Source of the DNA: Octopus vulgaris
Taxonomy: Eukaryota
Direction of reading: 5' to 3'
DNA: 64,000 bases
Assembly (NCBI GenBank): GCA_951406725.2
Contig: OX597814.1
Location: 25,048,001 to 25,112,000 of the forward strand
The translations under genes and the position numbers were made by a program. Shown here piece by piece: positions 1 to 27,278 of this stretch. The notes beneath the pieces are model-generated. The model did not search any database. It had not been told where the DNA came from and worked only from the letters and a program-made list of their open reading frames with translations. The first letter of the stretch is position 1; each line of letters starts with the position of its first letter.

Positions 1-71
1 TGTGATGGTGTCACAGAAAAAAAATACTGAATACTGGTGGTTGTGCAACATAAAATTCACTTACCCTCATC

Positions 72-524
72 ATGAGTGCTGAAATATCAAATAAAAATAG
101 AAATGAGAACGGTGTGAATGAGGCTGGAACAACTCTCACCCAGCTGTGCCCCATGGGTGAACAGAGTGGGTCTAATCCTCATCAAACAATTGCTAAAAAG
201 TGGATGAAAGAAATGAATGTGGTTGTAATGGAGTGCTACTTTCTAGATAATCCAAGAAATAATAGTGAAGTGGTAATAGCGATGGTAATTGGAACATTAG
301 GAGCAATTTCCAACGGATCTAAAAAACATATTAAGAATATTGGAGCTGCTATCAGGCTGGAGGTGATCCAGAAGACAGCATTGTTGGGTACAGCTCACAT
401 TCTAAGAGAGTTTTGGCTCTTTGAGTCACAGGACATGGTACTACTTGAAACCTTTGGTGATTCGTTGTTGTCTGCTTTCAAGTAAAGAATAACCGGTAAG
501 AAAGAACTATCTGAGGAGAATCTT
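72..524 (+). mobile_element. Internally deleted R4/Dong-like RLE non-LTR retrotransposon relic (N-terminus fused to C-terminus), followed by (TAA)n
   Basis: ORF 72-485 has an N-terminal KKWMKEMNVVVMECYF motif and a C-terminal VIGTLGAIS...IQKTALLGTAHILR motif, typical of the two ends of R4-clade ORFs. No RT lies between them. Confidence 0.7.
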
Positions 525-532
525 TAATAATA

Positions 533-606
<74 letters not shown>

Positions 607-608
607 AA

Positions 609-1000
609 TTTGACAAGCTCAGAAAATATAAAGACCTGCTCATTGAAACTGAGAAAATGTGGCATCTCAAGGCGGTTACAATACCAGTGATCGTAGGAAT
701 GATCAAGAAGGGAACCGAAAATTATATGAGAATGATCCCTGGCTTACCATCCCTGCAAGAAGTGTAAAAGATTGTCTTAACTGGTACATCACATGTATTG
801 AGAAGAGCATTGTGAGAACTATTACTACCCATGTATTTTAATTTAACTTTATTTCTATCAAAAAAAAAAAAATTAACGAACTAGTGAGTTTAGTTTAATG
901 GCCTACCAATGTATACTATGAGTTTCTTTGCCCTAGGAGTCGGGAAGACACTCGGCAAGAAATGGAAGCAAATTTGAAAGAAGAAAAAAACCCCATAAAT

Positions 1001-1002
<2 letters not shown>
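609..1002 (+). mobile_element. 5'-truncated R4/Dong-like element (RLE C-terminus plus 3' UTR) embedded in (TAA)n/(GAA)n
   Basis: Translates KLRKYKDLLIETEKMWHLKAVTIPVIVG...LPSLQEV*KIVLTGTSHVLRRAL*. The 3' UTR recurs inverted at 59515-59656, and (TAA)n lies on both sides. Confidence 0.75.
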
Positions 1003-1038
<36 letters not shown>

Positions 1039-1393
1039 TAATAATGAAGTATTGCAAGGCATTTGTTAAGCTATTTGTTAGTGATAGATATAGTTGTTAT
1101 TGCAGCTGTATAGAATTTCTAGAAATCAGATGAACTAAGGATGAAATGTCCACATTTTATTCTTCAAACTGATTCTCTAGTTTTTCCTGGACGTTCTATA
1201 AGTATCTATAGACCTTATCACTAGTAATAAGATTCTTGAAGCATTTTTATGTAGCATAGATTATCATAATATCATTATCGTTGTAATGGTTCATATACTA
1301 ACAAGCCTTATCCACCCTAGCTCTAGCAACAAATACTAATGACTAATATATACTTTACAGTATTTATGATATTATTTTAGTTCTAGGATACTC

Positions 1394-1630
1394 TCTCTTT
1401 ACTTGTTTCAGTCATGTGACTGTGACCATGCTGGAGCACCGCCTTTAGTCGAGCAAATTGACCCCAGGACTTATTCTTTGTAAGCCTAGTACTTATTCTA
1501 TCGGTCTCTTTTGCCGAACCGCTAAGTTACAGGAACATAAGCACACCAGCATTGGTTGTCATGCGATGTTGGGGGACATGTACAGACACACAAACATATA
1601 CACACACACACATATATATATATACATATA
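1394..1630 (-). mobile_element. tRNA-derived SINE family A, 3' half
   Basis: Matches the 3' half of full copies at 12631-13127 and 33520-33920 (CTCCAGCATGG...GACTGAAACAAGTAAAAGAG tail). Confidence 0.85.
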
Positions 1631-1825
1631 TATACTCTTTACTCTTTTACTCTTTTACTTGTTTCAGTCATGTGACTGTGGCCATGCTGGAGCATCACCT
1701 TTAGTCGATCAAATCGACCCCAGGACTTACTCTAAGGACTTATACTAAACCTAGTACTTATTTTATTGGTCTCTTTTTTGCCGAACCGCTAAGTTACGGG
1801 GACAAACACAGACACACAAACATGC

Positions 1826-1855
<30 letters not shown>

Positions 1856-1862
<7 letters not shown>

Positions 1863-4800
1863 GAAAGGGCTTAGTAAAATAAATTACTTTGCCACATACT
1901 GAACTCATTAGAAATAGTAGCTAAAAAAACTTTTTTAAAACTATTTCTAATACTTAAAGAAAATCTCTCTCATATAGTGTTTGCTCAATTCAACTCACGA
2001 AAGTATGGGGGTAGAGACATTAAAAAATCAAATGCAAAGGTTATTTGAGAACGTACGTTTCAAGATTAGTCAACTCGACATTTCTATCATCAGCTCAGAA
2101 CTCCTTGGTTTGGATTTGAAAACACTGAAAGTGGGAGCATACCCTTTCGGCTTCTTATCGCTTCTGAAGATCTGCTCGAAACTAACAGTGCCAGCAAACC
2201 CAAAATATGCAAGCGAAGAATTTCTGCTCTCCCCTTTCCACCAGCGTGGGTTAAAATCAGTAAACACTATGCTTTTTCGGTAAAATCCGAAGCATTAAAT
2301 AGAGAAAGATGAATTATAATTTCAACAATTGAGGGTAAAATTAATTAATTATTAATCAATCTCACCAAGTATTCAGTATGTAAAGGGACCATTTAAGGCG
2401 AATTCAAATTATTACATTATATAAAAGGGCTTAGTAAAATAAATTACTTTGCCACATACTGAACTCATTAGAAATAGTAGCTAAAAAAACTTTTTTAAAA
2501 CTATTTCTAATACTTAAAGAAAATCTCTCTCATATAGTGTTTGCTCAATTCAACTCACGAAAGTATGGGGGTAAAGACATTAAAAAATCAAATGCAAAGG
2601 TTATTTGAGAACGTACGTTTCAAGATTAGTCAACTCGACATTTCTATCATCAGCTCAGAACTCCTTGGTTTGGATTTGAAAACACTGAAAGTGGGAGCAT
2701 ACCCTTTCGGCTTCTTATCGCTTCTGAAGATCTGCTCGAAACTAACAGTGCCAGCAAACCCAAAATATGCAAGCGAAGAATTTCTGCTCTCCCTTTCCAC
2801 CAGCGTGGGTTAAAATCAGTAAACACTATGCTTTTTCGGTAAAATCCGAAGCATTAAATAGAGAAAGATGAATTATAATTTCAACAATTGAGGGTAAAAT
2901 TAATTAATTATTAATCAATCTCACCAAGTATTCAGTATGTAAAGGGACCATTTAAGGCGAATTCAAATTATTACATTATATAAAAGGGCTTAGTAAAATA
3001 AATTACTTTGCCACATACTGAACTCATTAGAAATAGTAGCTAAAAAAACTTTTTTAAAACTATTTCTAATACTTAAAGAAAATCTCTCTCATATAGTGTT
3101 TGCTCAATTCAACTCACGAAAGTATGGGGGTAAAGACATTAAAAAATCAAATGCAAAGGTTATTTGAGAACGTACGTTTCAAGATTAGTCAACTCGACAT
3201 TTCTATCATCAGCTCAGAACTCCTTGGTTTGGATTTGAAAACACTGAAAGTGGGAGCATACCCTTTCGGCTTCTTATCGCTTCTGAAGATCTGCTCGAAA
3301 CTAACAGTGCCAGCAAACCCAAAATATGCAAGCGAAGAATTTCTGCTCTCCCCTTTCCACCAGCGTGGGTTAAAATCAGTAAACACTATGCTTTTTCGGT
3401 AAAATCCGAAGCATTAAATAGAGAAAGATGAATTATAATTTCAACAATTGAGGGTAAAATTAATTAATTATTAATCAATCTCACCAAGTATTCAGTATGT
3501 AAAGGGACCATTTAAGGCGAATTCAAATTATTACATTATATAAAAGGGCTTAGTAAAATAAATTACTTTGCCACATACTGAACTCATTAGAAATAGTAGC
3601 TAAAAAAACTTTTTTAAAACTATTTCTAATACTTAAAGAAAATCTCTCTCATATAGTGTTTGCTCAATTCAACTCACGAAAGTATGGGGGTAAAGACATT
3701 AAAAAATCAAATGCAAAGGTTATTTGAGAACGTACGTTTCAAGATTAGTCAACTCGACATTTCTATCATCAGCTCAGAACTCCTTGGTTTGGATTTGAAA
3801 ACACTGAAAGTGGGAGCATACCCTTTCGGCTTCTTATCGCTTCTGAAGATCTGCTCGAAACTAACAGTGCCAGCAAACCCAAAATATGCAAGCGAAGAAT
3901 TTCTGCTCTCCCCTTTCCACCAGCGTGGGTTAAAATCAGTAAACACTATGCTTTTTCGGTAAAATCCGAAGCATTAAATAGAGAAAGATGAATTATAATT
4001 TCAACAATTGAGGGTAAAATTAATTAATTATTAATCAATCTCACCAAGTATTCAGTATGTAAAGGGACCATTTAAGGCGAATTCAAATTATTACATTATA
4101 TAAAAGGGCTTAGTAAAATAAATTACTTTGCCACATACTGAACTCATTAGAAATAGTAGCTAAAAAAACTTTTTTAAAACTATTTCTAATACTTAAAGAA
4201 AATCTCTCTCATATAGTGTTTGCTCAATTCAACTCACGAAAGTATGGGGGTAAAGACATTAAAAAATCAAATGCAAAGGTTATTTGAGAACGTACGTTTC
4301 AAGATTAGTCAACTCGACATTTCTATCATCAGCTCAGAACTCCTTGGTTTGGATTTGAAAACACTGAAAGTGGGAGCATACCCTTTCGGCTTCTTATCGC
4401 TTCTGAAGATCTGCTCGAAACTAACAGTGCCAGCAAACCCAAAATATGCAAGCGAAGAATTTCTGCTCTCCCCTTTCCACCAGCGTGGGTTAAAATCAGT
4501 AAACACTATGCTTTTTCGGTAAAATCCGAAGCATTAAATAGAGAAAGATGAATTATAATTTCAACAATTGAGGGTAAAATTAATTAATTATTAATCAATC
4601 TCACCAAGTATTCAGTATGTAAAGGGACCATTTAAGGCGAATTCAAATTATTACATTATATAAAAGGGCTTAGTAAAATAAATTACTTTGCCACATACTG
4701 AACTCATTAGAAATAGTAGCTAAAAAAACTTTTTAAAACTATTTCTAATACTTAAAGAAAATCTCTCTCATATAGTGTTTGCTCAATTCAACTCACGAAA

Positions 4801-5158
4801 GTATGGGGGTAAAGACATTAAAAAATCAAATGCAAAGGTTATTTGAGAACGTACGTTTCAAGATTAGTCAACTCGACATTTCTATCATCAGCTCAGAACT
4901 CCTTGGTTTGGATTTGAAAACACTGAAAGTGGGAGCATACCCTTTCGGCTTCTTATCGCTTCTGAAGATCTGCTCGAAACTAACAGTGCCAGCAAACCCA
5001 AAATATGCAAGCGAAGAATTTCTGCTCTCCCCTTTCCACCAGCATGGGTTAAAATCAGTAAACACTATGCTTTTTCGGTAAAATCTGAAGCATTAAATAG
5101 AGAAAGATGAATTATAATTTCAACAATTGAGGGTAAAATTAATTAATTATTAATCAAT
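1856..5158 (-). repeat. 560-bp tandem array, ~5.9 near-identical units, each with a hammerhead-like motif (retrozyme or Penelope pLTR-like)
   Basis: Period of 559-560 is visible in the sequence and ORF track (1981, 2541, 3100, 3660, 4220, 4779). Only a few substitutions and 1-bp indels separate the units. Confidence 0.95.
2046..2097 (-). ncRNA. Minimal type I hammerhead ribozyme-like motif, copy 1 (also 2606-2657, 3165-3216, 3725-3776, 4285-4336, 4844-4895)
   Basis: Minus strand reads UGAG-CUGAUGA-U AGA AAU GUC GAGUU GAC UAA UCU U-GAAA-CGUACG-UU-CUCA. It has the core motifs, stem I UGAG/CUCA, stem II AGA/UCU plus GUC/GAC, and palindromic ACGUACGU as stem/loop III. Confidence 0.7.
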
Positions 5159-5161
5159 TAA

Positions 5162-5287
5162 TAATTTATTTTACTAAGCCCTTTTATATAATGTAATAAT
5201 TTGAATTCGCCTTAAATGGTCCCTTTACATACTGAATACTTGGTGAGATTGATTAATAATTAATTAATTTTACCCTCAATTGTTGAA

Positions 5288-5289
<2 letters not shown>
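5162..5289 (+). repeat. Inverted 128-bp partial copy of the 560-bp unit
   Basis: Reverse complement of unit segment ~2319-2446, abutting the array and followed by (TA)n. Confidence 0.9.
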
Positions 5290-5350
<61 letters not shown>

Positions 5351-5359
<9 letters not shown>

Positions 5360-5751
5360 TAAAAGGAATTCCAACCTTGTCTGATTTTCACGTTTTATTT
5401 ACAATCTTATAATGATATAAGATAATATAATATAATAAAATAAAATAAAATAATAGAATGTTAAATGTTCATTCTGATTGAACTAGTACTTTCATGCATT
5501 AAATTCTGCAATCTCCAGAAATGCTTCACAATTTTTGACTGTCAAAAATTGTGAAGCATGACTGTCACCACTACTACATGAACCTGAAGATTGCAGAATT
5601 TAATGCATGAAAGTACTAGTTCAATCAGAATGAACATTTAACATTCTATTATTTTATTTTATTTTATTATATTATATTATCTTATATCATTATAAGATTG
5701 TAAATAAAACGTGAAAATCAGACAAGGTTGGAATTCCTTTTATTAATATAT
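5351..5751. repeat. Fold-back element with 168-bp inverted arms (5351-5518, 5584-5751) and an internal perfect hairpin, between (TA)n tracts
   Basis: The arms are reverse complements with one mismatch seen. The spacer holds a 19-bp-arm palindrome at 5521-5559. Confidence 0.92.
5579..5623 (+). ncRNA. Minimal type I hammerhead ribozyme motif
   Basis: UGAAC-CUGAAGA-U UGCA GAAUUUAA UGCA U-GAAA-GUAC-UA-GUUCA: perfect 5-bp stem I, 4-bp stem II, 1-bp stem III with palindromic AGUACU, CUA cleavage triplet. Confidence 0.8.
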
Positions 5752-5777
5752 TCTTCTATACACAATCACACACACCC

Positions 5778-5836
<59 letters not shown>

Positions 5837-6042
5837 TAAATTAGAGACAAAACCACTATTAGGCAAATCAAACAATGAAAAACTTAAGCCAATACATAAG
5901 ATTATTTAATTTATATTATTTAAATATATAACAAAATTATTAAAAAAATATAATTAATATCACACTACAATCGTTTCATGCCTGCTAACTTCTTCATCTG
6001 ATTTTTCCCTGTAAGTTTGGATTTATTCCCTAATATTTATTA

Positions 6043-6080
<38 letters not shown>

Positions 6081-8883
6081 TACGACGGGCTTCTTTCAGT
6101 TTCCGTCTACCATATCCACTCACAAGGCTTTGGTCGGCCCGAGGCTATAGTAGAAGACACTTGCCCAAGGAGCCACGAAGTGGGACTGAACCCGGAACTA
6201 TGTGGTTCATAAGCAAGCTACTTACCACACAGCTACTCCTACACCTATAGGGACATCCTTATAATGAATGCATCATCCTCCTTAATCACAAACATTATAA
6301 TTCTTTATGTGATATTGTCCAATAAATTCCCTTAACATTGATTGTGTTATGATCTCTATAACTTTCATAATTTGTATAAACTCTTTGAACACTTCCTTGC
6401 TTACTCCGAAATAATTTTTTAATCATTAGGTTATGTTTTGGATATCTATCGAACTGTATAATTTTGATTGACTTACTTTATTCTAAGTAATATTGTGACA
6501 ATTTTGGTCAATATAAACATTAGGTTAACGACTTTCTACTTATTTACCGGGTTATTAGTTTTGATTTACGTTCTGTAGTAAGAACTGACTCTCCAACTGA
6601 TGAATTCTTCCTAAATAATTAAATGATACCTAAATATTTCCCTATTCTACATTCATATGTTCAGGAACTCCTAAGTTTATAAATTTATACTTTTAAATTA
6701 GCATACAGTGTTACATACAAAAATTTTGTTATTTTAAGGCACACATTTATTTATTCATTAATACCAATCACCCCTCCAGTCACAGTGCTGACCAATTGTC
6801 TCTCTAGTTTTTCACTCTATCTTTTACTCTCTCTCTCTCTCTCTATCTGTCTCTCTCTCCCTTTTTTTCTTTTTCTTCTTTTCCCCTCTACTTCATTTAG
6901 TTTATTTTGTTCCATTAGTTCTTTCCTTTTTCCTCATCTGTTTTCCCTTCTCCACTTTTAGCATGATTAATTCAGTGAATTAAAACAATACCAATTATAC
7001 AATAAATGGGTATTGAGAATATTGTCCATGACTACCTTTGAACTTGTCTTGATTAATGTTTGCTTAGCGCTTACCATTGACTATATCGGATGAGTTCTGC
7101 CTCTATTCACCTTTGTGGGTGAGGTTATTTAGATTAATTATGTAGTTATAGATCTTGATACTCCAGTTGACTTCACATTTACGACCTTGTTCAACCATTG
7201 TTTCTTGTGAGACTGCTCAGAGGACAAATTGACCTTAATTTTCGTAAATGTTGCTATTCTGATTAGAAATTTCACTTGTTGATAATCTGTTGATTATAAG
7301 ACATCGCTCATCTGTTTACCTGATTGCCTGATGATTTGGGACTTATATTACGTATTACACAATCTAATTAATTGTATATGTTTATATTAAAATAAAAACT
7401 CCTAATGAAACAATGAAACAAATGTAGCAGAAAACAGACATTAGTCTTATATTTATATATGTACACATACACATATGCACACACATACACACACATATAC
7501 ATGTATGTATGAGCATGCGTGTGTGAGTGTGTATGTGTGTATATGTGCATCTGTATTTATGTATATATGCATGTGTGTTTGCATGTGCATGTGTGTGTGT
7601 GCCTGTATATATAATGTAATAGTTGTAATACCTTTTCTGAAAGCCCTCAGTTATGTGTATAATATTAACGAAGATATATTTAAGGCCTAACTGATTTTTT
7701 TAAAAAGGCCTCACATGTTAGTCTTAGATTAGGGTAACCTCCAGCAACTAACTGATACATAAAATTAAAAAGGAAATTATTCATTTATTAAGAAAGCAAT
7801 AATACAAATATCAACTGCTCTTGCACAAGAAAAGTCAATGATGTTTCACTTGACAATCTAAAACACAAATTCAGTGAAAGAATGCAAATTAAGAATCAGA
7901 GGGAGATTTTCAGAACATGGGTTGCTGTGCTCTACTATGGTGAAGCTTGAGTTAGTTGTAGACAACTTAAGAATTGAGATTCAGTGCCATAATCTTTAGA
8001 GCTGTAATCTTCTTGAGAGACTTAACATGAGGCACTTAGATGTGAGAAAGACTTTGAATGAATAAATTTATTAGCGGTTTTTCTTATAAACAAAAACACT
8101 TCTTGGAATTTGATTGGTTACGAGAGTTATTAGAATTGAAAAGGTATCAAGGAATGAATGAGTGAGAAATTTCTGGAGATGGAATTAAAAACAATGTAGA
8201 AGTATCAAAACAGAACAATGATGCCAAAGAATGTAAAATAACATTCTCATTAGCAACCACAACTTTACAATGGCAAAATTAAAATTAAAGAAAAAATTGG
8301 AAGTGACTGGCAAAGCAAATATTGCATTAACAATTGTGGGCAGGTAAAAACAAAATAGATTATTTAATTTAATGTAGAAGTAGTGTTATAGAGATAGTAA
8401 ACTGATAATATAATATCAAATTTAATGAATCATTTTATGTGAAAGGAAACTTCCCAGATGGTTAGCTTTCACACAGTTCTCTAATGGCATAGCTTTATTA
8501 GTGGATAAAATTAAACAGACGGATCTCATTTCACACGTCACAGTAGGAAGGATAATTTAATAAATTAAGTGGAGCATTTTCTATTTAGCATGTGAATTAG
8601 TCAATTTGATATGTTAATTAGGTCACTACAAGATTTGATTGTATCAACTCTAAAGACTACTTGTTAAGTAAAATGGATCTTGATTCTTAATTAACGAAAT
8701 AGCACCTGAGCACCATCACCGTGACAAGGGAAGTGAAATACCATCACCCTCCACAGGAAGGTGAGAAACAAGAAGACTAAGCATAAGAAGTTCAAAAATA
8801 CATTTGAGCTTGAAAGGTGAAGAAAAAGAACTGACAGAAATGATTATTTAACTTTCAACCATCATTACCATCATCACCACCAC

Positions 8884-25599: not shown

Positions 25600-27278
25600 G
25601 ACAGTGTGTGAGAGAGACTCATGATGTTGTAGGAGAGAAATGTGACCGTATGGATGATGGTTCACTTGCACTAAACAAGGCTGCAATGAGAGAGGTTTGG
25701 AGATGCCACTATGAAAGGTTGCCCAATAAAGAAAATGAATTAATGAATGGGAGAAAGAGAGTCTGCTGAGTGTCAACCCAACAGAGGGACCAGCTATCCA
25801 AGTTGACAGTACCTTGGTAGATAAAGCAATTAAGATTATGAAGACAGGGAAAGCCCCAGGCCCATCAGGAATCACTGCAGAGATGCTCAAAATATCTGGC
25901 ATTGTCGGCTATAGCCTAGTCACCCGTATAGTTAACCAGGTGATACACAAAGGAGTCATACCCAATGAATGGTGTAGCAGCACCATAGTCAACTGCTACA
26001 AAAGAAAAGGTGATGCTTTAGGTAGAAAAAATTACAGAGGTATCAAGTTTTTCGATCAGGTAATGAAGGTCACGGAGAGGATCATAGCCCAACTAATTAG
26101 GGAGAGAGTCAGTTTAGATGAGATGCAGTTTGGGTTCGTACCAGGGAAAAGCACCACTGATGCTATATTACTGGTAAGACAGCTGCAGGAGAAATACCTT
26201 GCCAAAGATAAACCTCTGTACCTGGCTTTCGTTGACATGGAGAAAGCCTTTGACAGGGTCCCCCGATCACTTACCTGGTGGTCAATGAGGAAACTAGGGA
26301 TAGATAAATGGTTAGTGAGTGCTGTGCGAGCCATGTACAGGGACGCTGTTAGTAAGGTGAGGGCTGGCAACGAGTACAGTGAAGAATTCCGAGTAAAGGT
26401 AGGGGTCCACCAAGGTTCAGTCCTCAGCCCCCTCCTATTTATCATAGTTTTCCAGGCAATAACAGAGGAATTCAGTTCAGGATGCCACTGGGAGCTCCTC
26501 TATGCTGACGACCTTGCAATAATTGCTGAGTCACTATCAGAAGTTTAGGGGAAGTTTCAGGTGTGGAAACAAGGATTAGAATCGAAGGGCCTTAGAGTCA
26601 ACCTAGCTAAAACCAAAGTCTTAATAAGTTGGAAGGCAGGCAAACCACAAATCCCTTCAGGTAGATAGCCTTACTTGATCTGTAGAAAAGGCGTAGGTAG
26701 AAACTCTATAAGATGTACCCAATGTAAGCTATGGCCACATAAGAAGTGCAGCAATATCAAAGGAAGGCTAAATGGAAAGATAGTTTTTGTATGTGGCAGA
26801 TGCTCAGGAGCAATAAATACTGAAAATGAGCAGAGAAGAACTTCCGCTACATTCCAGGGGAAAAAAAATAAAAATAGTTGATAGCTTCTGTTACCTAGGT
26901 TACCAAGTGCCGGTGGCATGTAAAAAGCACCATTCAAGCATGATCGTTACCAGCATTGCCTTACTGGCACTTGTGCCAGTGACACATGAAAAACATTCAA
27001 TGCCAGTGCCGCTGGACTGGCTCCTGTGCAGGTAGCATGTAAAAAACACCATTTCCATATGGCCGTTACCAGTACCACCTGACTGGCCCTCGTGCTTGTG
27101 GCACATAAAAGCAGCCACTACACTCTCAGAGTGGTTGGCGTTAGGAAGGGCATCCTGCTGTAGAAACTCTGCCAGATCAGATTGGAGCCTGATGCAGCCA
27201 TCTGGTTCGCCAGTCCTGAAGTCAAATCGTCCATCCCATGCTAGCATAGAAAGCGGACATTAAATGATGATGATGATT
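25600..27278 (+). mobile_element. 5'-truncated, internally deleted RTE-clade LINE with RT, Cys-rich region, 3' UTR and (GAT)n tail
   Basis: RT motifs GKAPGPSG, NYRGI, QFGF, FVDMEKAFD, GVHQGSVLSPLLF, LYADD. Frameshift near 26545 and an abrupt join to the 3' UTR near 26900. Confidence 0.92.
25814..26548 (+). pseudogene. Reverse transcriptase fragment of the RTE LINE
   Basis: 244-aa ORF covering RT motifs through YADD, with stops upstream and a frameshift downstream. Confidence 0.9.

What the first reader, a model, noticed from the sequence alone, without database searches (positions are those of the whole stretch)
1856..5158. Candidate cephalopod retrozyme: six near-identical 560-bp units, each with a minimal hammerhead ribozyme
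Seen: ~5.9 head-to-tail units with only a few differences. On the minus strand each has CUGAUGA-stem II-GAAA-CGUACG-UU flanked by complementary UGAG/CUCA (2046-2097 and every ~560 bp). Other hairpins exist in the unit (TTAGAAATAG...CTATTTCTAA, TCGG..CCGA). Known: minimal type I hammerheads with palindromic loop III occur in Penelope-like pLTRs and in non-LTR retrozymes, cleave as dimers, and release monomers that can circularise. Inference: a multimeric transcript would self-process into 560-nt linear or circular RNA, and the array may be a rolling-circle cDNA inserted by a Penelope-like RT/GIY-YIG. The U.U pair closing stem II and the GUU triplet are atypical, so activity is unproven.
Basis: partly seen in the sequence, partly recalled or inferred. 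Interest (0 to 1): 0.85.

Follow-up and report, generated by a model that had tools for sequence, protein, structure and literature searches.

The report
Ribozyme repeat hitchhiking on Penelope retrotransposons
This array is one of several hundred copies of a 560-base non-coding repeat that carries a predicted self-cutting hammerhead ribozyme and sits in TA microsatellites with the two-start, inverted-arm pattern of Penelope-like retrotransposons, so it is likely a retrozyme that borrows their enzyme, possibly through an RNA circle.

Summary
In detail: 5.9 units of 559-560 bp, over 99% identical, each with the hammerhead motif on the minus strand.

The unit is a dispersed family with 1,468 exact 19-mer matches, extrapolated to about 650 loci. 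In 40 sampled loci, 63 of 67 RNA-3' ends abut TA repeats. 25 of 29 two-armed copies have one arm starting at site A and the other at site B, 101 nt apart, never A/A or B/B. This is the Penelope-like (PLE) 'tail' signature.

The hammerhead helices covary across divergent sister families. One copy elsewhere has 28S rRNA joined exactly at the predicted cut in both arms.

Against or open: 5' ends do not pile up at the cut, Rfam finds no hammerhead, no autonomous partner was found, and transcription and circles are untested.

Verdict: a new member of the known animal non-LTR retrozymes, with unusually clear genomic evidence for PLE mobilisation. The scan noted the same PLE-type anatomy before on other DNA (tRNA-bearing, ribozyme-free repeats in other genomes).

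The parts
1853..5158 (-). Main arm: 5.9 tandem units of 559-560 bp. The RNA is inferred to be the minus strand, and its 3' end (RT start site A) is at about 1856.
   Evidence: no ORF above 18 aa from ATG on the RNA strand
5162..5294 (+). Inverted second arm (reverse complement of 2315-2446). It begins at RT start site B (5294, equivalent to 2315) and carries the 101-nt tail (about 5194-5294).
   Evidence: 99.2% over 133 bp; same end in other loci
1828..1862 (.). (TA)n target microsatellite, left
5288..5356 (.). (TA)n target microsatellite, right
2046..2097 (-). Type I hammerhead motif of unit 1, with the predicted cut between 2050 and 2049. It repeats at 2606, 3165, 3725, 4285 and 4844.
   Evidence: covariation
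2050..2059 (.). 10-nt palindrome forming helix/loop III. It is predicted to pair between two units (dimeric hammerhead).
   Evidence: duplex -11.6 kcal/mol against +2.4 for the monomer hairpin
2135..2144 (-). Splice-donor-like motif GG|GUAUG, 49 nt upstream of the catalytic core (GT at + 2142-2141)
   Evidence: same motif 45-50 nt upstream of the core in 12 of 14 representatives; the 2 misses are rearranged junction copies
2315..2415 (-). Tail: the 101 nt between RT start sites B (2315) and A (2416), present once per unit
   Evidence: fixed ends in 40 loci
1907..1951 (.). Hairpin near start A. Its 5' flank motif is shared by all sister families and is a candidate protein-binding site.

Best explanation
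The array is one insertion of a dispersed, non-coding, hammerhead-bearing repeat (a non-LTR retrozyme) that is likely copied into (TA)n microsatellites by the reverse transcriptase and GIY-YIG endonuclease of a Penelope-like element (PLE). Shown: about 650 loci by extrapolation, TA targets, two fixed RNA-3' ends 101 nt apart with one used by each arm, variable 5' ends, both arms of a locus drawn from the same sequence variant, and a hammerhead fold kept through compensatory changes. Inferred: (1) the unit is an ORF-less pseudo-LTR, ordered promoter, splice donor, hammerhead, start A, start B, and is transcribed on the minus strand; (2) the hammerheads cut in pairs and release 560-nt monomers that a host ligase closes; (3) a PLE dimer nicks both strands of (TA)n, and the two 3' ends prime at A and at B on AUAU-like RNA sites; (4) A and B lie only 194 and 295 nt from the cut, so the longer arms must be copied from a circle or an uncut multimer, and I favour the circle for long arrays such as this one (about 55:45); (5) the two cDNAs are joined at their truncated ends, giving head-to-head arms.
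For: Dispersal: 1,446 + 22 exact matches of a 19-mer; 100 listed matches fall in 46 loci. Target: 63 of 67 3' ends have (TA)3 within 16 nt, against 5-7% of background 16-mers. Ends: 25 of 29 two-armed loci are A+B and none is A/A or B/B; of the other four, two were cut by the fetch limit and two have one odd end. Frangieh 2024 (PMC11167929) shows in vitro that a PLE cuts and extends both strands of AT-rich DNA and starts at two internal RNA sites that bound the tail. A coding PLE family in this genome has the same anatomy with a 35-nt tail. A young PLE with a 781-aa open frame is present in many copies. Both arms RNA-templated: in 10 of 26 two-armed loci neither arm contains the other. Within-locus divergence is 0-1.9% against a median of 3.6-8.3% between loci. 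Ribozyme under selection: 94% of cells paired, 9 of 17 pairs with two-sided change, including C3-G8 to U3-A8; slid controls 31-39%. Position 17 is U, A or C in every subfamily seen. One locus (L032) has 28S rRNA, nt ~455-925 in sense, joined without microhomology exactly at the predicted cut in both arms.
Against: 5' ends are not enriched at the cut: 7 loci against 6, 7 and 1 at three control positions (Poisson p 0.19). No PLE with a matching pseudo-LTR was found among 50 GIY-YIG loci, and no PLE ORF lay beside 60 sister-family loci. Rfam has no hammerhead match at E<=10. The window's family lacks the usual G10.1-C11.1 pair. The predicted ensemble forms stem I only about 50% and stem II about 20% of the time. 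The GUA-triplet subfamily does not have significantly longer arms (p 0.10). In the literature, hammerhead cleavage was not needed for PLE insertion in vitro (PMC11167929), and only 1 of 9 Xenopus retrozyme dimers cleaved (preprint 10.64898/2026.07.22.740005). The covarying changes stem from few independent events, and the 20 aligned sequences were picked by a core pattern.
Confidence: 0.8

Rival explanations
1. Same PLE-mobilised element, but the template is the uncut multimeric transcript. The hammerhead is weak, protein-dependent or only trims RNA, and circles play no part in making arrays. This is a variant of the best explanation at step 4, so its probability overlaps with it.
For: 1,446 of 1,468 copies at the cut site continue with the expected base, and ends are not enriched there. 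Unprocessed RNA was the dominant substrate for the anole PLE in vitro (PMC11167929). There is no significant length gain in the GUA subfamily.
Against: Read-through is equally expected on a circle. Arms of 1-2 units dominate (65 of 69), yet near-homogeneous arrays of 6-13 units occur in several subfamilies, which truncation of linear templates cannot lengthen without template jumps. The L032 junction implies that a cut RNA was used as template at least once.
Confidence: 0.35
2. A short PLE-type insertion was later expanded in place by unequal crossing-over, like satellite DNA, so array length says nothing about the RNA.
For: Li, Clavereau and Pollet (preprint 10.64898/2026.07.22.740005, Discussion) propose local amplification of PLE terminal sequence. 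Homogeneity within arrays fits this too.
Against: The window's array belongs to the youngest subfamily (0% from its nearest loci), which leaves little time. Arrays are dispersed, each with its own intact A/B ends and TA flanks, and 31 of 69 arms already exceed one unit.
Confidence: 0.12
3. The array is an assembly artefact or an ordinary satellite with a chance hammerhead-like motif.
For: Near-identical units; no Rfam match; the isolated motif folds no better than shuffles.
Against: Hundreds of dispersed loci with the same ends, compensatory changes across families only 40-60% alike upstream of the motif, and unit-specific differences within the array.
Confidence: 0.03

Closest known systems
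Animal non-LTR retrozymes (coral, mussel, axolotl: Cervera & de la Pena 2020, PMC7229834; vertebrates: Li, Clavereau & Pollet 2026 preprint 10.64898/2026.07.22.740005)
   Same: Tandem, low-GC (33%), non-coding units with one type I hammerhead each; no LTR; dispersed monomers to multimers; PLEs present in the same genome.
   Different: The unit is 560 nt, above the 150-450 nt of the 2020 paper but within the 51-972 nt of the 2026 preprint. Expression and circles are not shown here. The passages and sections I read do not describe TA targeting, paired A+B ends or inverted arms for retrozymes; the 2020 paper mentions long target duplications, which cannot be seen in (TA)n.
Penelope-like elements with C-terminal GIY-YIG (Poseidon of Anolis, PMC11167929; Penelope of D. 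virilis, PMC2377424; PLE minimal hammerheads, PMC4209133)
   Same: Two internal RT start sites bounding a tail present at one end only; inverted 5'-truncated arm; AT-rich target; hammerhead with short helix I, long helix II, an extra base after A9 and a palindromic loop III; splice donor upstream of the hammerhead.
   Different: No ORF; the tail is 101 nt instead of 30-40; G10.1-C11.1 is absent in this family (present in sister families) and there is an extra base before G12.
Non-autonomous Chlamys elements such as MRC1 of Chlamydomonas (Craig et al. 2021, PMC8557442)
   Same: Non-coding PLE parasites forming multicopy head-to-tail insertions; the clade shows microsatellite bias.
   Different: Those resemble their autonomous partner at the 3' end, and the clade lacks canonical hammerheads. 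Here a hammerhead is present and no partner with shared sequence was found.

Membership tests
Non-LTR retrozyme | [quoted passage not shown] | tested here: met
Non-LTR retrozyme | No protein coding, no LTR structure, GC below 50% | tested here: met
   longest ATG ORF 18 aa on the RNA strand and 92 aa on the other; GC 33%; no tRNA gene. PBS/PPT were not searched for specifically.
Non-LTR retrozyme | Dispersed monomeric and multimeric copies | tested here: met
Non-LTR retrozyme | Transcribed, with linear and circular monomer RNAs | not testable with these tools
   No run on record as RNA was listed, and contigs cannot show strand, ends or circles
Hammerhead ribozyme, type I | Core CUGANGA...GAAA...UH with three helices, supported by covariation | tested here: met
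   20 sequences chosen by a core pattern, so only the pairing, not the core's invariance, is tested
Hammerhead ribozyme, type I | G10.1-C11.1 pair closing helix II | tested here: not met
   U.U followed by A-U in the window's family; G-C with a bulged A in sister families
Hammerhead ribozyme, type I | Match to an Rfam hammerhead model | tested here: not met
   the neighbouring PLE hammerhead at about 5578 was missed too, so the models look insensitive to these minimal forms
Hammerhead ribozyme, type I | Self-cleavage 3' of N17 | tested here: inconclusive
   one 28S chimera joined exactly at the site; no excess of 5' ends there; no bench assay
Non-autonomous Penelope-like element | Tail at one end from two internal RT start sites; inverted 5'-truncated arm | tested here: met
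   25 of 29 two-armed loci are A+B
Non-autonomous Penelope-like element | Insertion bias to microsatellites or AT-rich DNA | tested here: met
   63 of 67 against 5-7% background
Non-autonomous Penelope-like element | Sequence shared with the pseudo-LTR of an autonomous PLE in the same genome | tested here: inconclusive
   none among 50 of 150 scored GIY-YIG loci out of 6,136 candidates; no PLE ORF beside 60 sister-family loci

The most novel reading that the evidence does not exclude
The genome holds a fossil of hammerhead cleavage and RNA ligation in the germ line. A retrozyme RNA cut at its ribozyme site was joined to a 28S rRNA fragment, and that single molecule was copied twice, once from each start site, by a two-headed PLE enzyme. 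That would show that PLEs prime both target strands on one RNA, that cut and re-ligated retrozyme RNA is a real template, and that long arrays like this one are rolling-circle copies of a 560-nt circle made from a stripped pseudo-LTR.
Probability: 0.3. Interest if true: 0.72.

Novelty: new member of a known kind. Interest (0 to 1): 0.5.

Why it matters
How animal retrozymes move is still a hypothesis. The papers read argue for PLEs from co-occurrence and pseudo-LTR likeness and say the mechanism is open. This young, high-copy family shows the PLE insertion signature directly, in a strict one-arm-per-start-site pattern with a long 101-nt tail that is easy to map. It also offers natural ribozyme variants (GUU, GUA, GUC; C3-G8 against U3-A8) and intact PLE ORFs in the same genome. 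That makes the circle-versus-multimer question and the role of PLE hammerheads testable in vitro. My searches found no paper on cephalopod retrozymes in the held library.

Tried and rejected
Rfam: no hammerhead hit in 1-8000 at E<=1 or in 2020-2130 at E<=10.

Tandem Repeats Finder cannot see the array, because its period limit is 500.

Pile-up of 5' ends at the cut looked enriched against one control (1 end) and vanished with two more (6 and 7 ends). Denominators at the control sites were not counted and are assumed similar. A further 4 ends among 8 matches lie one base on.

Foreign junctions at the cut against controls: 2 of 7 loci against 0 of 14, p 0.10. The second case (L050) is low-complexity flank and was not counted as a chimera.

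Better triplet, longer arrays: mean 2.0 against 1.45 units per arm, p 0.10 (first-listed matches only).

Private variants shared by all units of an array, as a rolling-circle test, were uninformative with about 60 of 650 loci sampled.

Autonomous partner: not found. Two apparent hits near GIY-YIG genes (L100, L119) were independent insertions of sister retrozymes. The L145 family, a partner candidate, proved to be another tandem unit of about 530-560 nt.

Expression: no RNA holder listed. Contigs of four runs guessed to be RNA cover the unit but cannot show strand, ends or level, so they are not used as evidence.

Earlier findings by place and by sequence: none.

Full report
Observation. The array is as described: 1853-5158, units of 559-560 bp starting at 1856, 2416, 2975, 3535, 4095 and 4655, 99-100% identical. 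The 52-nt hammerhead stretch is identical in all six units. On the minus strand it has stem I UGAG/CUCA, core CUGAUGA, a U.U opposition, a stem II interrupted by a 3x3 loop, GAAA, a palindromic loop III and a GUU triplet, with the predicted cut between + 2050 and 2049. An inverted 133-bp copy (5162-5294, the reverse complement of 2315-2446, 99.2% identical) follows the array, and (TA)n tracts flank the whole. The host was not determined; 'cephalopod' rests on recalled SINE sequences and a 2.8-Gb genome of 227 contigs.

A dispersed young family. A unit search gave 1,583 candidates, of which 40 were scored, mostly 98-100% identical and on many contigs. A 19-mer ending at the cut has 1,446 matches followed by the expected base and 22 followed by another. 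The first 100 listed fall in 46 loci, so there are roughly 650 loci by extrapolation. A motif shared with sister families has 3,664 matches. These sisters are tandem units of about 530-570 nt, some only about 40-60% alike upstream of the ribozyme.

Insertion anatomy. I fetched 40 of those 46 loci (left out were the window, three already held and the last two). All carry the 19-mer, which biases arms to 195 nt or more. RNA-3' ends sit at two fixed places, A (unit base 1, window 1856) and B (unit base 460, window 2315), 101 nt apart. Of 29 two-armed loci, 25 have one arm from A and the other from B, and none is A/A or B/B. Two were cut by the fetch limit and two have one odd end; 11 loci are one-armed. 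63 of 67 3' ends have (TA)3 within 16 nt, against 5-7% of background 16-mers. 5' ends vary. The window fits: long arm from A, short arm from B. In 10 of 26 two-armed loci neither arm contains the other, so both must be copied from RNA (lengths read). Units and arms of one locus differ by 0-1.9%, against a median of 3.6-8.3% to other loci.

Comparison with PLEs. Craig et al. 2021 (PMC8557442, passages) describe PLE insertions as partial tandems with an inverted 5'-truncated copy and a 30-40-bp tail at one end, and report (TA)n preference for the Naiad clade. Frangieh et al. 2024 (PMC11167929, parts 1-2 of 4) show that a PLE protein cuts and extends both strands of AT-rich DNA and starts at two internal RNA sites that bound the tail. 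They also report that hammerhead mutants did not affect insertion. This genome has coding PLEs: 6,136 GIY-YIG candidates, 150 scored, many in 781-aa open frames, with RT and GIY-YIG confirmed for one. A CX4CxxC motif before the endonuclease suggests Neptune or Nematis by Craig's description; no tree was built. One coding family has the same TA-flanked, two-ended anatomy with a 35-nt tail, and a remnant of it lies beside the array. No PLE whose pseudo-LTR matches the unit was found among 50 GIY-YIG loci, and no PLE ORF lay beside 60 sister-family loci. The partner is therefore unidentified.

The unit looks like a stripped pseudo-LTR. A GG|GU splice-donor-like motif lies 45-50 nt upstream of the core in 12 of 14 representatives; the two misses are rearranged junction copies. 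A TATA box precedes it in two sister families but not in the window's family. In Drosophila Penelope a conserved donor lies 46 nt after the start site (PMC2377424, passages), and the intron ends at the hammerhead (PMC4209133, passages). The donor reading is inference: the motif could instead pair with a complementary stretch near start B.

Is the hammerhead real? Rfam finds nothing. The isolated motif is not unusually stable, and predicted occupancy is about 50% for stem I and 20% for stem II. In 20 hammerheads from window and sister families, 94% of cells pair and 9 of 17 pairs change on both sides, including stems I and II and the tertiary C3-G8 to U3-A8; slid controls pair 31-39%. Three caveats apply: the rows were picked by a core pattern, the changes come from few events, and two rows are out of register at stem II. 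Position 17 is U, A or C in all subfamilies seen. G appeared only at truncations, chimeras or a deletion (first 100 of 272 listed). The U.U place varies (U-A, G.U, A.A, bulged A) and recurs as U.U in a coding PLE's hammerhead. Loop III is a 10-nt palindrome that pairs between two units at -11.6 kcal/mol, while the monomer hairpin costs +2.4. This fits the dimeric mode in PMC4209133. The whole RNA strand folds well (z -6.3 as a circle).

Does it cut in vivo? A linear cut monomer would stop cDNA 194 or 295 nt from the starts, yet 55 of 69 arms exceed 300 nt. 5' ends are not enriched at the cut: 8 arms at 7 loci, against 6, 7 and 1 at three control positions, p 0.19. Linear monomers are therefore not the usual template, which fits a circle and an uncut multimer equally. 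One locus points to cleavage. In L032 (G000:C4, about 165.627 Mb) both arms, one from A and one from B, both TA-flanked, end exactly at the cut. They continue without microhomology into the same point of a GC-rich sequence. That sequence is 28S rRNA, nt about 455-925, lying sense and upstream of the cut RNA. None of the 29 two-armed sample loci has a foreign insert over 12 nt (read). From that bound I estimate the chance of any chimera landing on this base at below about 8%. The simplest reading is one cut RNA ligated to an rRNA fragment and copied twice. Two template jumps to one defined rRNA end is the alternative. Joining of 5'-OH to cyclic-phosphate ends by RtcB is shown for retrozyme monomers in PMC7229834 (passages and Discussion). 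It is a single event, unconfirmed by reads.

Mechanism. Shown: dispersal, target, paired ends, same-variant arms, conserved fold. Inferred: minus-strand transcription from a pseudo-LTR promoter, dimeric cleavage, ligation to a 560-nt circle, two-strand priming by a PLE dimer at A and B, and rolling-circle synthesis of the long arm. I put PLE mobilisation of a retrozyme at about 0.8, with or without circles, and the circle as template for long arrays at about 0.55 within that.

Novelty. Animal non-LTR retrozymes are known, and PLEs were proposed as their carriers (PMC7229834). A 2026 preprint (10.64898/2026.07.22.740005, parts 1-3 of 5) supports this by co-occurrence and pseudo-LTR similarity in 35 species, none a mollusc, and found cleavage in 1 of 9 dimers. 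Its supplements are closed and could hold insertion details. Searches for cephalopod or octopus with hammerhead ribozyme listed only unrelated or PLE-clade papers. A search for retrozyme-rRNA chimeras listed three papers, seen as listings only, none on this by title. The library lacks most subscription journals. The scan earlier reported PLE-type insertion anatomy for ribozyme-free tandem repeats in other genomes; I had reached this reading before seeing those notes and did not test them. Verdict: new member of a known kind. The added value is the strict A+B rule, the long tail and the 28S chimera. Interest 0.5.

Noticed in passing
window 5357-5786: An inverted-repeat remnant of the 3' pseudo-LTR of a coding PLE family (90-98% to L182, L183, L195), in the same TA tract. 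Each arm carries a minimal hammerhead (GUA triplet, U.U at the base of helix II), and only one arm has a 35-nt tail.
   Followed up: partly
L032 1328-2330 (G000:C4 about 165.627 Mb): A retrozyme-28S rRNA chimeric insertion joined at the predicted cut in both arms.
   Followed up: yes
L099, L100, L103, L189 and others: A young PLE family with 781-aa open frames in many copies. Its hammerhead has the U3-A8 variant of the core pair and lies about 75 nt from the element's end.
   Followed up: partly
L202, L203 (G000:C1 33.10 and 71.60 Mb): A 545-546-bp subfamily, 90% identical to the window's unit, with a GUA triplet and arrays of 11-12 units; about 250 units in the genome.
   Followed up: partly
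L230-L259: A distant sister family with a near-canonical hammerhead (G-C at the base of helix II, GUC triplet, U3-A8, non-palindromic loop III) that might cut as a monomer.
   Followed up: partly
L204 about 1450: One arm holds a GUA unit followed by a GUU unit, a change at the cleavage nucleotide itself.
   Followed up: no
L222 about 1519: An arm reaches the cut site (plus one base) and jumps back to unit base ~20 on the same strand: a possible template jump or mini-circle.
   Followed up: no
G000:C20 23.96-24.07 Mb: rDNA array with a period of about 18.4 kb, and many dispersed 28S fragments elsewhere.
   Followed up: no
window 25739-26548: A 269-aa open stretch that looks like a LINE reverse transcriptase fragment (the family likeness is recalled, not tested).
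   Followed up: no
window 1398-1815: Two tandem copies of a very abundant SINE-like repeat directly left of the array (the identity as an octopus SINE is recalled).
   Followed up: no
window 240-810: Decayed 3' ends of what look like restriction-endonuclease-type non-LTR elements before (TAA)n and (AAG)n tracts (recalled likeness).
   Followed up: no
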